Source of the DNA: a virus
Lineage: Duplodnaviria; Heunggongvirae; Uroviricota; Caudoviricetes
IMG/VR virus record: IMGVR_UViG_2778261069_000005
Span: 1 to 8,854 of that record
Length of the DNA: 8,854 nucleotides
Reading direction: 5' to 3' (one strand)
In this document: positions 535-2,778 of the stretch, one piece after another
Numbering within the stretch: position 1 is the stretch's first letter
Layout: every line of letters begins with the position of its first letter
The notes under the pieces: model-generated
Told to the model about the DNA's origin: nothing
Databases searched by the model: none
What the model saw: the letters and a program-made list of their open reading frames with translations, nothing else
Program-made: the position numbers and the translations under genes

Positions 535-580
535 TCGCTTTTCAGCGACGTAGGACGAATGTCCGTTGTTACAAAGAGCG
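535..580 (-). promoter_or_regulatory. nutR-like N-utilisation site: boxA (564-580) and boxB hairpin (535-548) on the minus strand
   Basis: Minus strand reads CGCTCTTTGTAACAACGG (boxA, close to the rrn/lambdoid consensus GCTCTTTAACAA), then 15 nt, then TCGCT-GAAA-AGCGA (5-bp stem, GAAA tetraloop). It lies 8 nt after the cro stop and is a near copy of the nutL architecture at 2733-2778. Confidence 0.6.
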
Positions 581-587
581 GGGTTAC

Positions 588-821
588 TTATGCTGCTGAT
601 GCTCTACGCGATACGAACACCAGATTTTCCTTTTTCACAGGTTTATAACCCGTGAAATTACGAGTGGCTTCTTCGATTGCATTCGCTTTATCTGGGGAAG
701 CTCTTCGAAACCCATATGCAATCTGATCAAGATAGCCAACTGAAGTATTCGCTAATGCGGCGAGTCGCTTCCATTCCTCACTAGAAGCCTCTTTTCGCCA
801 GCGTAGTAGTTCATTACTCAT
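588..821 (-). CDS. cro: Cro-like small DNA-binding regulator (first gene of the rightward lytic operon)
   Basis: 77 aa ORF divergent from cI, preceded by Shine-Dalgarno GGAGG with 5-nt spacing. Position between the operator region and nutR/cII matches cro; the sequence is not lambda Cro, so the call is positional plus small basic protein. Confidence 0.6.
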   Translation of the reverse strand: MSNELLRWRKEASSEEWKRLAALANTSVGYLDQIAYGFRRASPDKANAIEEATRNFTGYKPVKKENLVFVSRRASAA

Positions 822-831
822 TAGTGCCTCC

Positions 832-934
832 GTTTATCACACAGAGCAACTTTACCATTTTGATAAATAAAACGCAATGAAGATTTATCAAAATGCATAT
901 TTATCCATTTGCTAAATAGAGGGAGAATCGTGGG
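832..934. promoter_or_regulatory. OR-like divergent control region (PR toward cro, PRM toward cI) with repeated operator motifs
   Basis: 17-bp sites of the form TTTATC-N5-GATAAA at 851-867 (TTTACCATTTTGATAAA), 884-900 and 900-916, plus a half-site at 833-838. Candidate PR on the minus strand: -35 TTGCGT (872-877), 17-bp spacer, -10 TAAAGT (849-854), with the strongest operator in the spacer. Confidence 0.55.
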
Positions 935-1639
935 ATGGAAAACAAAGATATTCGCAAATCGAATCTGGCGTTTTTGCTAGATGAGCATAAAAAAATCGCG
1001 GGTAACACTAATGCAAGCTTTGCCGATAAGCTTGGAGTTAGCCCTTCTCAACTCACGCAAGTCTCCGGTGAAAAAAGCACTCGAAACATAGGGGATAAAC
1101 TAGCAAGAAAATTCGAAGCCGCACTTGGGTTACCTAATGGGTGGCTTGATTTGGTACATGATGTAACACCAATTGCATCATGCTCAGATTCTTTAACTTT
1201 TGTCGGTCAGGTAAGAAAAGGGTTAGTGCGCGTGGTTGGTGAGGCAATTCTTGGTGTTGATGGTGCCATCGAGATGACCGAAGAGCGCGATGGGTGGCTC
1301 AATATTTATAGCGATGATCCAGATGCCTTTGGTCTTCGTGTGAAAGGAGACAGCATGTGGCCCAGAATAAAATCAGGAGAATATGTACTCATTGAGCCTA
1401 ACACCAAAGTATTCCCGGGGGATGAGGTGTTTGTCAGAACTGTTGAAGGACACAACATGATCAAAGTTCTTGGCTATGACAGAGATGGAGAATACCAATT
1501 TACAAGCATCAACCAGGACCACAGGCCAATAACGTTGCCTTATCATCAAGTAGCAAAGGTGGAGTATGTGGCTGGTATTCTGAAGCAATCTCGCCATCTG
1601 GATGACATCGAGGCAAGGGAGTGGCTGAAAAGTTCGTGA
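935..1639 (+). CDS. cI: CI-family prophage repressor (N-terminal HTH, C-terminal S24/LexA-like autopeptidase domain)
   Basis: 234 aa. Shine-Dalgarno GGGAG 8 nt upstream. C-terminal domain has the GDSMWP serine motif and a downstream lysine (MIKVL), typical of the LexA/CI Ser-Lys dyad. Divergent from the cro-like gene across the operator region. Confidence 0.9.
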   Translation: MENKDIRKSNLAFLLDEHKKIAGNTNASFADKLGVSPSQLTQVSGEKSTRNIGDKLARKFEAALGLPNGWLDLVHDVTPIASCSDSLTFVGQVRKGLVRVVGEAILGVDGAIEMTEERDGWLNIYSDDPDAFGLRVKGDSMWPRIKSGEYVLIEPNTKVFPGDEVFVRTVEGHNMIKVLGYDRDGEYQFTSINQDHRPITLPYHQVAKVEYVAGILKQSRHLDDIEAREWLKSS

Positions 1640-1690
1640 CTTCATCGTCACATAGCTGGTAACCAGTGGCCTGAAGAGACGTTTGGGTGA
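1640..1690 (+). other. In-frame remnant of a lambda-type cI 3-prime end (encodes ...QWPEETFG then stop) directly after the cI stop codon
   Basis: Codons 1664-1690 read QWPEETFG-stop, matching the C-terminus of lambda CI as I recall it, and are in the same frame as the upstream cI ORF, which stops at 1637-1639. Confidence 0.4.
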
Positions 1691-1907
1691 TGTGATAGAG
1701 ATCATTATTCAATTCGATTGAGAAAAATCATCATAAGGTTTATATCCATTTATTAGATTTTATGTGTATAAATAGTTAAAAATGCACGATGTAGAGATAT
1801 TTGTGCTTAACATCAATTAATCATTGCTAAATCGTGCTTATTGTTCAGAAATCGCCCAAGTCATATTGAAAATCTGTTGGCGAACACCTATATAAGGAGT
1901 ATAGTTA

Positions 1908-2270
1908 GTGACCCAAAACGTATTGCCAATCAACAAGAGCTTGCATGACCGAGCTGTTGATGAATTTAATCGTCTGCATGGAACAATGATTGGCGAGATT
2001 AGTGCAATGCTGAAAACAGCTAAAGTAGCGCCATTGGTGGATCTTCGTAAGAAAGATCCTACCTTTTCGAACGTTGTCGCAGAATTACGGACATTCAGAG
2101 ACGTATGTAATGCTCTGCTCCCATACTTTCGTGTAGATAAGACCAGCGAAATCGCTGTCATCGATAAGTTACTTATACTGGCTAATGACCTGGCTCAAGC
2201 CATCGATGCTGACGATCCTGACGCATTGTGCGCAGCAATAGCAGCCCTTGATGTTGAGCCTTACATTTAA
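1908..2270 (+). CDS. Hypothetical protein, 120 aa, acidic and probably alpha-helical, GTG start; first gene of a moron downstream of cI
   Basis: ORF with Shine-Dalgarno AAGGAG 8 nt upstream of GTG at 1908. Preceded by a roughly 215-bp very AT-rich spacer. No similarity to lambda RexA or any protein I recognise. Confidence 0.6.
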   Translation: MTQNVLPINKSLHDRAVDEFNRLHGTMIGEISAMLKTAKVAPLVDLRKKDPTFSNVVAELRTFRDVCNALLPYFRVDKTSEIAVIDKLLILANDLAQAIDADDPDALCAAIAALDVEPYI

Positions 2271-2285
2271 ACGAGGGGAAAAAAA

Positions 2286-2414
2286 ATGACTAAAGCGTTT
2301 GACTATACTGCCGTTAGTAAGCTTTTGGCTGAAATGCGCGGATGTGTAGAGCGCGTTCAAAATCTACGCCGCGACTTTGAAGCTCACATCAATCATTCAC
2401 AAAAAGCGGCTTGA
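2286..2414 (+). CDS. Hypothetical small protein, 42 aa (MTKAFDYTAVSKLLAEMRGCVERVQNLRRDFEAHINHSQKAA)
   Basis: ATG at 2286, 15 nt after the stop of the 120-aa ORF, with a G-rich ribosome-binding site (GAGGGG) upstream. A strong terminator follows 20 nt downstream. Below the 60-aa cutoff of the supplied ORF track. Confidence 0.4.
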   Translation: MTKAFDYTAVSKLLAEMRGCVERVQNLRRDFEAHINHSQKAA

Positions 2415-2433
2415 TACTTAAGTTAGATGACAG

Positions 2434-2461
2434 AACCCGGCCTCAGCGCCGGGTTTTCTTT
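2434..2461 (+). terminator. Intrinsic terminator closing the cI-moron transcription unit
   Basis: AACCCGGC / GCCGGGTT stem (2434-2455) with a short loop, followed by TTTTCTTT. Confidence 0.7.
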
Positions 2462-2642
2462 GCCTCACGATCCCCACACCTAATAACACCTTAACCAATT
2501 GTATTTATTGAAAAATTGATAGATACAACTTTCTAAACCACGAAATTCTGATCCCCCTCAAGTCTCTTCATTCCTTCTGATAAATTCCCGCAATCAAATA
2601 AAAAACCATAATAATCAACAGGATATTTGAAAACCCAAACAA

Positions 2643-2690
2643 TTTATCATTTTGCTATTGTCATTAGTTTATCATTTCGATAAAGTCAAC
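2643..2690 (+). promoter_or_regulatory. OL/PL-like region: leftward early promoter with overlapping operator sites
   Basis: Candidate PL: -35 TTGTCA (2658-2663), 17-bp spacer, -10 TAAAGT (2681-2686). Operator-like 17-mers TTTATCATTTCGATAAA (2668-2684) and TTTATCATTTTGCTATT (2643-2659) share the motif seen in the OR region. Confidence 0.5.
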
Positions 2691-2732
2691 TCATCAGCAG
2701 GACGCTGTAAGCCAAACGGAGCAGACTGGCAG

Positions 2733-2778
2733 GCTCTTTAAACAACGTCGAACACTCGACTACGTGGCTGAAAAGCCA
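2733..2778 (+). promoter_or_regulatory. nutL-like N-utilisation site: boxA (2733-2746) and boxB hairpin (2765-2778)
   Basis: GCTCTTTAAACAACG (boxA), then 18 nt, then TGGCT-GAAA-AGCCA (5-bp stem, GAAA tetraloop). Lies about 40 nt downstream of the predicted PL start and about 100 nt upstream of N. Confidence 0.65.

What the first reader, a model, noticed from the sequence alone, without database searches (positions are those of the whole stretch)
535..2778. Paired nut sites with compensatory stem changes and rrn-like boxA, matched to an N protein with a P22-like C-terminus
nutL (plus strand) and nutR (minus strand) share the architecture GCTCTTT..AACAACG, a spacer, then a 5-bp stem with GAAA tetraloop. 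The boxB stems differ at one base pair in a compensatory way (TGGCT/AGCCA versus TCGCT/AGCGA), which preserves pairing and argues for a functional RNA hairpin. The loop is a 4-nt GNRA-type tetraloop rather than the 5-nt lambda loop, and the N protein has its own arginine-rich motif, suggesting a distinct N-boxB specificity class.
Basis: seen in the sequence. Interest (0 to 1): 0.45.

Follow-up and report, generated by a model that had tools for sequence, protein, structure and literature searches.

The report
Phage N antitermination sites, tetraloop boxB
These are the two N-utilisation (nut) RNA sites and the matching N antiterminator gene of a common lambda-like E. coli prophage, already annotated in Shiga-toxin phage VT2-Sakai; the only unusual feature is a true 4-base GNRA loop where lambda and P22 have 5 bases.

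Summary
nutL (2733-2778, +) and nutR (580-535, -) share one layout: boxA GCUCUUU, then ACAACG, a small spacer hairpin, CUACG, and a 5-bp boxB hairpin with a GAAA loop. nutL lies about 40 nt after the predicted pL start. nutR starts 8 nt after the cro stop.

The N gene (2877-3149, 90 aa) matches Pfam N_peptide (E 3e-32) and has a P22-like C-terminus (17/21 identical).

None of this is new. The N protein is 100% identical to VT2-Sakai N. nutR is identical from boxA to boxB, and nutL differs only in the spacer-hairpin loop. GenBank AP000422 already labels both sites "putative N-utilization".

I add four points:
- In 148 related loci with both sites readable, the arginine-rich motif (ARM) class predicts the loop without exception: RRR[AE][RH]RA with a GAAA/GCAA tetraloop (107), RRRERLKAK with GACAA (41).
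- Both hairpins show compensatory changes.
- The spacer is an H-19B-type hairpin.
- The window carries an H-19B-type immunity cassette between Sakai-type N and nut sites, so nutR tracks N rather than cro.

A separate binding specificity is inferred, not tested. Interest is low to moderate.

The parts
2733..2778 (+). nutL: boxA, ACAACG, spacer hairpin, CUACG linker and boxB
   Evidence: Pattern match; fold; near-identical to the 'putative N-utilization leftward' feature of VT2-Sakai AP000422
2733..2740 (+). nutL boxA GCUCUUUA, equal to the rrn-type consensus core
   Evidence: Sequence; rrn boxA UGCUCUUUA and lambda boxA CGCUCUUA as quoted in PMC2724277
2747..2760 (+). nutL spacer hairpin GUCGA-ACAC-UCGAC
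   Evidence: Fold; in relatives the stem is kept while the loop varies (CUC, ACAC, ACUC, AUC, GCAC)
2765..2778 (+). nutL boxB UGGCU-GAAA-AGCCA (5-bp stem, GNRA tetraloop)
   Evidence: Fold -6.5 kcal/mol, z -3.95; covariation
535..580 (-). nutR: boxA (C)GCUCUUUG, ACAACG, spacer hairpin, CUACG linker and boxB
   Evidence: Pattern match; identical from boxA to boxB to the nutR annotated as 'putative N-utilization rightward' in AP000422
553..564 (-). nutR spacer hairpin GGAC-AUUC-GUCC, identical to that of H-19B nutR
   Evidence: covariation GGAC/GUCC, GGCC/GGCC, GGCA/UGCC; PMC3526286 describes two hairpins in H-19B nutR, with NusA and Rho footprints on the spacer
535..548 (-). nutR boxB UCGCU-GAAA-AGCGA
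   Evidence: Fold -5.9 kcal/mol, z -2.93; differs from H-19B nutR boxB only by lacking the loop C
2877..3149 (+). N antiterminator gene (90 aa)
   Evidence: Pfam PF25694 N_peptide, E 3.4e-32; 100% identical to N of VT2-Sakai, the Stx1-converting phage, phage 1717 and others
2901..2954 (+). Codons for the arginine-rich motif, residues 9-26 (GTAASRRRARRANLQSQE)
   Evidence: Alignment; R3, R15 and R18, whose mutation inactivates H-19B N (PMC3526286), are conserved here
3084..3146 (+). Codons for the C-terminal module CLPNVALYAAGYRKSKQLTAR (inferred RNA-polymerase-binding region)
   Evidence: 17/21 identical to P22 gp24; shared by H-19B, epsilon34 and HK629 N proteins that carry different ARMs
2643..2693 (+). 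OL operator repeats, pL promoter (-35 TTGTCA 2658-2663, -10 TAAAGT 2681-2686) and predicted transcript start near A2693
   Evidence: Promoter scan; operator repeats; the leader ATCAGCAGGACGC is conserved with H-19B, VT2-Sakai and P22
588..821 (-). cro (77 aa), the gene upstream of nutR in the pR transcript
   Evidence: ORF list; annotated cro of H-19B
489..504 (-). tR1-like hairpin AUGCGU-UUCC-ACGCAU downstream of nutR
   Evidence: Sequence; corresponds to the 'putative rho dependent terminator for pR transcript' of AP000422

Best explanation
These are the nutL and nutR sites of a lambdoid prophage and the N gene that uses them. The proposed mechanism has five steps.
1. Transcripts from pL (+ strand) and pR (- strand) carry boxA, a small spacer hairpin and boxB.
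2. The N-terminal ARM of the 90-aa N protein binds the boxB GNRA tetraloop (GAAA closed by U-A).
3. NusB/NusE bind the consensus boxA, and NusA binds near the spacer.
4. The P22/H-19B-type C-terminus of N contacts RNA polymerase.
5. The modified polymerase reads through tR1 and the downstream terminators, which switches on the early genes.
Shown here: anatomy, position, folding, homology, covariation and the ARM-to-loop correspondence. Inferred from lambda, P22 and H-19B work: the protein-RNA contacts and antitermination itself. N, nutL and nutR form a matched set of the VT2-Sakai type. It differs from the P22/H-19B type (GACAA) and the lambda type (GAAAA/GAAGA) in having no extra loop base, and probably has its own recognition specificity.
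For: Position
- nutL lies about 40 nt after the predicted pL start and 99 nt before the N ATG. nutR starts 8 nt after the cro stop, before the tR1-like hairpin and cII.
Chance
- The composite motif occurs twice against 0 expected.
Fold
- The two-hairpin fold is predicted in all 10 variants tested.
Protein
- N matches Pfam N_peptide at E 3e-32 and aligns with H-19B, epsilon34, P22 and HK629 N. H-19B N residues R3, R15 and R18, needed for nut binding (PMC3526286), are conserved.
Prior annotation
- The same N, with an identical nutR and a near-identical nutL, is annotated as N-utilization sites in VT2-Sakai.
Covariation
- boxB base pair 1 occurs as U-A, C-G and A-U, and base pair 2 as G-C, C-G and A-U. 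All cells are paired, and 0 of 500 shuffles reach the covariation score.
- The spacer stem occurs as GGAC/GUCC, GGCC/GGCC, GGCA/UGCC, GUCGA/UCGAC and GAUUCA/UGAAUC.
- In a scan that did not require pairing, 316 of the 330 sites with the ACAAYG-spacer-CUACG context carry a fully paired 5-bp boxB with a GAAA, GCAA or GACAA loop. Five (L120-type nutL) hold a different hairpin, and nine are unrelated chance matches elsewhere in the loci.
Matching of N and loop
- 107 loci with ARM RRR[AE][RH]RA have tetraloops at both nut sites. 41 loci with RRRERLKAK have GACAA at both. There are no mixed loci.
- The window has H-19B-type OL-cI-cro, yet its nutR carries the Sakai-type boxA and loop.
Against: - There are no functional data for this N/nut class in any paper I could reach.
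- The covariation sets are small (6 distinct rows each). They were gathered with a filter that required pairing, and the unbiased scan only partly offsets this.
- The loci are closely related, so 148 concordant loci are far fewer independent events.
- For nutL, ViennaRNA predicts a slightly more stable alternative fold in which boxA pairs with the boxB loop and 3' arm (-14.9 against -12.8 kcal/mol).
- From my own memory of the lambda literature (Legault et al. 1998; Mogridge et al. 1995), the extruded loop base of lambda boxB contributes to NusA-dependent complex formation. A tetraloop has no such base, so part of the lambda mechanism may not carry over.
Confidence: 0.85

Rival explanations
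1. Same N/nut system, but the tetraloop is not a separate specificity. This N also acts on GACAA or GAAAA boxB hairpins, and those N proteins act on GAAA. Under this view the 1-nt loop difference is near-neutral and the concordance reflects linkage and shared ancestry.
For: All ARMs share the RRRxRR core. The lambda and P22 pentaloops are reported to fold like GNRA tetraloops (title of Legault 1998, as cited in PMC9074901). From my memory of Cocozaki et al. 2008, P22 N tolerates many GNRA-like loops. The loci are closely related, so the number of independent events is small.
Against: There are no mixed loci among 148, although nutR and N/nutL lie on opposite sides of a freely exchanged immunity cassette. 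In the window the H-19B-like cro is joined to a nutR that differs from H-19B nutR mainly in boxA and the loop C. The ARMs differ at 12-13 of 18 positions from P22 and H-19B.
Confidence: 0.25
2. boxA and boxB form a regulatory alternative structure. boxA GGCUCUUU pairs with the loop and 3' arm of boxB and hides boxB until NusB/NusE capture boxA.
For: This is the minimum-free-energy fold of window and Sakai nutL (-14.9 against -12.8 kcal/mol) and ties with the two-hairpin fold in nutR. The G/C difference at the first boxA base mirrors the boxB difference between nutL and nutR.
Against: It is not predicted in POCJ13 nutL or nutR, in the L025 nutL variant (U for G at the first boxA base), in epsilon34 or in H-19B. 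epsilon34 nutL/nutR and H-19B nutL lack the GCUCUUU boxA altogether. The complementarity follows automatically from the boxA consensus plus GCU-GAAA-AGC. Co-transcriptional folding favours the local hairpins.
Confidence: 0.05
3. The hairpins are chance palindromes, or terminator or Rho-loading elements unrelated to N.
For: nutR overlaps the rut region of tR1 in H-19B (PMC3526286). The antisense of the nutL spacer hairpin scores as a weak terminator-like site.
Against: 0 matches are expected by chance. The two sites are placed exactly as in lambda, P22 and H-19B. They covary, and loop type tracks the N ARM class.
Confidence: 0.02

Closest known systems
VT2-Sakai (Sp5) N with its annotated nutL and nutR (GenBank AP000422; also the Stx1-converting phage NC_004913, Stx2 phage 1717 and the PA phages)
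   Same: N is 100% identical over 90 aa. nutR is identical from boxA to boxB. nutL is identical except for the spacer-hairpin loop (CUC against ACAC). Positions relative to pL, N, cro and tR1 are the same.
   Different: The immunity cassette between the nut sites (OL, cI, cro, operators) is H-19B-type here, not Sakai-type. The Sakai annotation is a prediction; I found no experimental study.
Phage H-19B N and NUT sites (Neely & Friedman 1998, 2000; Sen laboratory, PMC3526286)
   Same: The architecture is the same: ACAAYG, spacer hairpin, CUACG, boxB with a GCU..AGC inner stem and a U-A closing pair. The nutR spacer hairpin is identical. The N proteins are homologous (41% identity) with the same C-terminus. 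cI, cro and the operators are about 95% identical.
   Different: H-19B boxB has a GACAA pentaloop, and its ARM is GNSRSRRRERLKAKAL. H-19B boxA is degenerate (GCUAUUUU at nutR, none obvious at nutL), whereas here boxA is consensus. H-19B N is 127 aa and has a ~37-aa internal segment that is absent here.
Phage P22 gp24 (N) and boxB
   Same: Pfam N_peptide family. The C-terminal 21 residues are 17/21 identical. boxA is GCUCUUUA. The boxB inner stem is GCU..AGC with a U-A closing pair.
   Different: The P22 loop is GACAA (nutL) or GACAA-like (nutR). There is no spacer hairpin. The ARM GNAKTRRHERRRKLAIER shares only 6/18 positions.
Phage lambda N and boxB
   Same: The genetic layout and logic are the same. 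The ARM is most lambda-like in its core (SRRRARRA.LQ.Q against TRRRERRAEKQAQ, 9/18). The loop GAAA equals the lambda loop GAAAA/GAAGA minus one base.
   Different: The lambda loop has 5 nt. Lambda has Trp18, while the aligned residue here is Glu26. The rest of the protein is unrelated (no match in the PDB sequence search). The lambda boxB stem is GCCCU/AGGGC.
Salmonella phage epsilon34 gp43 (N) and its nut sites
   Same: It carries a GAAA tetraloop at both nut sites, the same ARM class (GSAAGRRRERRAALQ) and the same spacer-hairpin architecture. The epsilon34 genome paper predicted a novel boxB specificity from its N-terminus.
   Different: The N body is H-19B-like (120 aa, 39% identical to the window N). 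No consensus boxA is present. The nutL stem is CGGCU/AGCCG, and its spacer hairpin is GAUUCA-GUGA-UGAAUC.

Membership tests
Lambdoid N/nut processive antitermination system | [quoted passage not shown] | tested here: met
   Pfam N_peptide E 3.4e-32; ARM at residues 9-26; first ORF after the predicted pL
Lambdoid N/nut processive antitermination system | Two nut sites, one between pL and N and one between cro and tR1/cII, each transcribed in the sense that gives boxA followed by boxB | tested here: met
   2733-2778 (+) and 580-535 (-)
Lambdoid N/nut processive antitermination system | boxA matching the GCUCUU(U)A consensus | tested here: met
   nutL GCUCUUUA and nutR GCUCUUUG, against rrn UGCUCUUUA and lambda CGCUCUUA (PMC2724277)
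Lambdoid N/nut processive antitermination system | boxB hairpin with a GNRA-type loop fold, maintained by compensatory change | tested here: met
Lambdoid N/nut processive antitermination system | N-dependent read-through of terminators, with dependence on Nus factors | not testable with these tools
   Needs reporter assays or in vitro transcription
VT2-Sakai-type N/nut set | N sequence identity plus GAAA-tetraloop boxB at both sites and a consensus boxA | tested here: met
   100% N identity; nutR identical from boxA to boxB; nutL differs by one spacer-loop indel/substitution
H-19B-type NUT architecture | [quoted passage not shown] | tested here: met
   the two hairpins in H-19B nutR are stated in PMC3526286
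H-19B-type NUT architecture | Reduced requirement for host factors (title of Neely & Friedman 2000) together with a degenerate boxA | tested here: not met
   boxA here is consensus, not degenerate. Host-factor dependence itself is not testable with these tools.
P22/H-19B boxB specificity class | GACAA pentaloop | tested here: not met
   The loop is GAAA at both sites. The loop C of H-19B nutR is absent in an otherwise near-identical sequence.
Lambda boxB specificity class | GAAAA/GAAGA pentaloop, with Trp18 in the ARM | tested here: not met
   The loop has 4 nt and no register gives a closed pentaloop. The residue aligned with Trp18 is Glu26.

The most novel reading that the evidence does not exclude
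The GAAA/GCAA-tetraloop boxB and the Trp-less, lambda-like ARM (RRR[AE][RH]RA.LQ) form a recognition mode that is functionally orthogonal to the lambda, P22/H-19B and phi21 pairs. No loop base is extruded, so assembly of the N-NusA complex cannot depend on such a base. The single-nucleotide loop difference would then insulate Sakai-type prophages from cross-activation by H-19B/933W-type N proteins where both types reside in the same E. coli strain. It would also provide a fourth orthogonal peptide-hairpin tether for RNA tools.
Probability: 0.4. Interest if true: 0.45.

Novelty: already known. Interest (0 to 1): 0.25.

Why it matters
N/nut antitermination controls the early genes of lambdoid phages, and the N module found here is the one carried by VT2-Sakai and many other Shiga-toxin-converting phages. 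In those phages it leads on to Q and, through Q, to toxin and lysis genes. Which N works on which nut site decides whether co-resident prophages can switch each other on. A natural boxB with a plain GNRA tetraloop fits the structural view that lambda and P22 N recognise a GNRA fold. It also gives a clean test of whether the extra loop base matters. As a finding it is confirmation, not discovery: the sites were annotated in GenBank record AP000422.

Tried and rejected
- Rfam at permissive E-value found only the cIII thermoregulator. No hit covered either nut site.
- A PDB sequence search with N found nothing.
- Ten literature searches found no paper in the held library that describes the Sakai-type nut sites or a natural tetraloop boxB. 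The key subscription papers (Neely & Friedman 2000, Franklin 2004, Cocozaki 2008, Legault 1998, Weisberg & Gottesman 1999) are not held.
- The genome-contig scan gave only 11 loci.
- The MAFFT alignment of all 24 nut variants (A2) puts the tetraloop gap at the 3' end and shifts the spacer arms. I did not use it for pair counts and used ungapped subsets instead (A3, A4).
- The first regex missed tetraloops because of greedy matching. This was fixed.
- The BLAST script compared against a multi-record file and crashed, and none of its output is used. replace it.
- I considered a 4-bp stem with a UGAAAA hexaloop, and a pentaloop register. Only the 5-bp stem with a tetraloop pairs fully, and the GCAA variant in POCJ13 fits GNRA.
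- I considered a boxA:boxB alternative fold. It is not conserved.
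Full report
**What the window is**

The 8854-bp window is the early-control region of a lambdoid prophage, drawn in the reverse of the usual lambda map. The features, in window order, are:
- cII, 150-449 (-), Pfam Phage_CII E 6e-35
- nutR, 580-535 (-)
- cro, 588-821 (-)
- the OR/pR/pRM region
- cI, 935-1639 (+), Peptidase_S24
- two small unassigned ORFs
- OL/pL, about 2643-2693
- nutL, 2733-2778 (+)
- N, 2877-3149 (+)
- the cIII thermoregulator RNA (Rfam RF01804, 4281-4339), then gam, bet and exo

The closest phages are Stx phages of the H-19B/BP-4795 type, at about 95% identity, but they cover only 59% of positions 450-3200. 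The exact arrangement occurs as a prophage in 86 of 5,426 complete E. coli genomes.

**Check of the observation**

- nutL: GCTCTTTA AACAACG TCGAACACTCGAC TACG TGGCT GAAA AGCCA (2733-2778).
- nutR, read on the minus strand: GCTCTTTG TAACAACG GACATTCGTCC TACG TCGCT GAAA AGCGA (579-535).

The composite pattern matches exactly these two places. None of 200 dinucleotide-preserving shuffles gave any match. Each boxB alone folds as a 5-bp stem with a 4-nt loop (-6.5 and -5.9 kcal/mol; z -3.95 and -2.93). The stems differ by one G-C to C-G flip.

N is 90 aa and matches Pfam N_peptide end to end (E 3.4e-32). Its last 21 residues match P22 gp24 at 17 positions.

**Context that makes these nut sites**

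A sigma-70-like promoter (TTGTCA, 17 nt, TAAAGT; 2658-2686) lies inside two operator-like repeats. These repeats resemble the inverted repeats between cro and cI. The downstream leader ATCAGCAGGACGC is conserved with P22, H-19B and VT2-Sakai. This puts nutL about 40 nt into the pL transcript and 99 nt before the N start codon. nutR begins 8 nt after the cro stop codon and precedes a hairpin. The VT2-Sakai record labels the equivalent hairpin a putative Rho-dependent terminator.

**Already annotated**

The N protein is 100% identical to N of VT2-Sakai, the Stx1-converting phage NC_004913, Stx2 phage 1717, the PA phages and others. It has relatives (tblastn E <= 1e-3) in 451 IMG/VR stretches, and all 80 of the best loci that were kept are at least 98% identical.

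GenBank AP000422 (VT2-Sakai) carries regulatory features named 'putative N-utilization leftward' and 'rightward'. Its nutR is identical to the window's from boxA to boxB. Its nutL differs only in the spacer-hairpin loop. The epsilon34 genome paper inferred a 'novel BoxB specificity' from the divergent N-terminus of its N (PMC2629481). Epsilon34 turns out to have the same tetraloop and a similar ARM. In contrast, RefSeq PGAP calls this N a hypothetical protein in E. coli SLK172 and annotates no nut sites there.

**What comparison adds**

I collected about 175 loci that encode relatives of N and read the ARM, nutL and nutR in each.

*1. Loop type follows ARM class without exception.* This holds wherever both sites could be read.
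- 107 loci with RRR[AE][RH]RA (Sakai, POCJ13 and epsilon34 types) have tetraloops at both sites. The loop is GAAA everywhere except GCAA in POCJ13 nutL.
- 41 loci with RRRERLKAK (H-19B/933W/HK97 type) have GACAA at both sites.
- Outside these classes, P22-like ARMs go with GACAA, and a lambda-like ARM with Trp goes with GAAAA (Winslowiella, L096). A lambda-like ARM with Phe at that position goes with GCGCU-GAAA-AGUGC (Rosenbergiella, L089).

*2. boxB covaries.* Among the six distinct tetraloop hairpins, base pair 1 is U-A, C-G or A-U and base pair 2 is G-C, C-G or A-U. The inner GCU..AGC never changes. All 30 cells pair, and no shuffle or slid register comes close. These rows were collected with a pairing filter. 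I therefore also scanned every ACAAYG-spacer-CUACG context (330 sites) without that filter:
- 316 sites carry a fully paired 5-bp boxB with a GAAA, GCAA or GACAA loop.
- Five (L120-type nutL) hold a different hairpin.
- Nine are unrelated chance matches elsewhere in the loci.

*3. The 'spacer' is a hairpin.* Its stem covaries (GGAC/GUCC, GGCC/GGCC, GGCA/UGCC, GUCGA/UCGAC, GAUUCA/UGAAUC) and its loop varies freely. It is flanked by the conserved ACAAYG and CUACG. This is the H-19B layout. PMC3526286 states that H-19B nutR has two hairpins. In that work NusA and Rho footprint on the spacer and N on the boxB loop, and nutR overlaps the rut site of tR1.

*4. boxA.* nutL GCUCUUUA equals the rrn consensus core, and GCUCUUUAAACAA differs from rrn GCUCUUUAACAA by one extra A (rrn sequence from PMC2724277). 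H-19B has GCUAUUUU at nutR and nothing obvious at nutL. Epsilon34 also lacks the GCUCUUU consensus.

*5. ARM.* In an ungapped register anchored on RRR, the window ARM shares 18-position identities as follows:

| Compared with | Identical positions of 18 |
|---|---|
| POCJ13 | 15 |
| epsilon34 | 10 |
| lambda | 9 |
| phi21-type | 9 |
| P22 | 6 |
| H-19B | 5 |

The residue aligned with lambda Trp18 is Glu26. H-19B N residues R3, R15 and R18, whose mutation abolishes antitermination (PMC3526286), are conserved.

*6. Mosaic structure.* The window follows H-19B from OL through cI and cro. It switches to Sakai-type sequence at the pL leader on one side and immediately after the cro stop on the other. 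From the spacer hairpin onward the three phages are almost identical. The window differs from H-19B nutR mainly in boxA and the single loop C. So nutR travels with N and nutL, not with the immunity cassette that separates them.

**Mechanism**

- Shown: two transcribed, conserved, covarying two-hairpin RNA elements with a consensus boxA, in the canonical places. They are paired with an N-family protein whose ARM class predicts the loop.
- Inferred from lambda, P22 and H-19B work: the ARM binds the GNRA loop of boxB; NusB/NusE bind boxA; NusA (and Rho at nutR) bind the spacer; the conserved C-terminal module contacts RNA polymerase; the complex reads through tR1 and later terminators.

No register gives a closed pentaloop, so the loop is a genuine tetraloop, and GCAA in POCJ13 fits GNRA. 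From memory of Legault et al. 1998 and Cai et al. 1998, the lambda and P22 pentaloops mimic a GNRA fold by extruding the fourth or third base. This class simply lacks that base. Whether that changes NusA dependence or specificity cannot be settled here.

**Rivals**

- Promiscuous recognition (the loop difference is neutral) is the only serious rival. I give it 0.25. The concordance across a recombining cassette argues against it, but the loci are closely related.
- An alternative boxA:boxB pairing is the predicted minimum-energy fold of nutL (-14.9 against -12.8 kcal/mol). It is absent in POCJ13, one Sakai-type variant, epsilon34 and H-19B.
- Chance, or a pure terminator or rut role, does not fit the data.

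**Verdict**

The feature is already known and annotated in VT2-Sakai. The residual interest is that a very common N class in Stx phages uses a plain GNRA tetraloop with a Trp-less, lambda-like ARM. I found no paper in the held library that describes or tests this.

Noticed in passing
window 4-127 and 8731-8854: A perfect 124-nt inverted repeat at the two ends of the window. The sequence matches ends of IS3-family elements (IS629/IS1203-like) that are present in most E. coli genomes. The 8.6-kb early region is therefore bracketed by two oppositely oriented IS copies. The O/P replication genes that follow cII in other genomes are not present here.
   Followed up: partly
window 450-3200 compared with L001 (H-19B) and L002 (VT2-Sakai): The mosaic junctions lie exactly at the conserved pL leader CATCAGCAGGACGC and just after the cro stop. 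An H-19B-type immunity cassette sits between Sakai-type N/nutL and nutR.
   Followed up: yes
window 2729-2778 (and 535-580): Predicted alternative fold in which boxA GGCUCUUU pairs with the boxB loop and 3' arm. The G/C difference at the first boxA base mirrors the boxB stem difference between nutL and nutR. The fold is not conserved in relatives.
   Followed up: partly
L179 9428-9700 (E. coli SLK172, NZ_CP017631): RefSeq PGAP annotates this exact N protein (WP_000088203.1) as a hypothetical protein and annotates no nut sites, although the VT2-Sakai record names both.
   Followed up: no
L120, L123, L124 (IMG/VR; N with ARM GTSRARRRERLKAK): At the nutL boxB position these loci carry GCUC-CGUCAAC-GAGC instead of a GNRA-type hairpin. 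Their nutR boxB is UCGCU-GACAA-GGCGA, with a U-G closing pair. This may be a degenerate or different nutL.
   Followed up: no
L089 about 4160-4175 (Rosenbergiella gaditana): A distant N homologue has a lambda-like ARM (ARTRRDEKRKAKQMAF, with Phe where lambda has Trp18). About 240 nt upstream lies a GCGCU-GAAA-AGUGC tetraloop hairpin. This suggests tetraloop boxB also occurs in a second ARM lineage.
   Followed up: no
window 1908-2270 and 2286-2414: Two ORFs (120 and 42 aa) lie between cI and pL in the position of lambda rex. They have no Pfam match and are followed by a GC-rich hairpin with a T tract near 2432-2460. This region is not shared with H-19B or VT2-Sakai.
   Followed up: no
window 4281-4339: Full-length match to the lambda cIII thermoregulator RNA (Rfam RF01804, 88.5 bits, E 4e-21).
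   Followed up: no
window 2805-2876: An in-frame upstream ATG would extend N to 114 aa, as annotated in NC_004913. Alignment with H-19B and epsilon34 N, and the GGGAGG Shine-Dalgarno sequence before 2877, favour the 90-aa form.
   Followed up: partly
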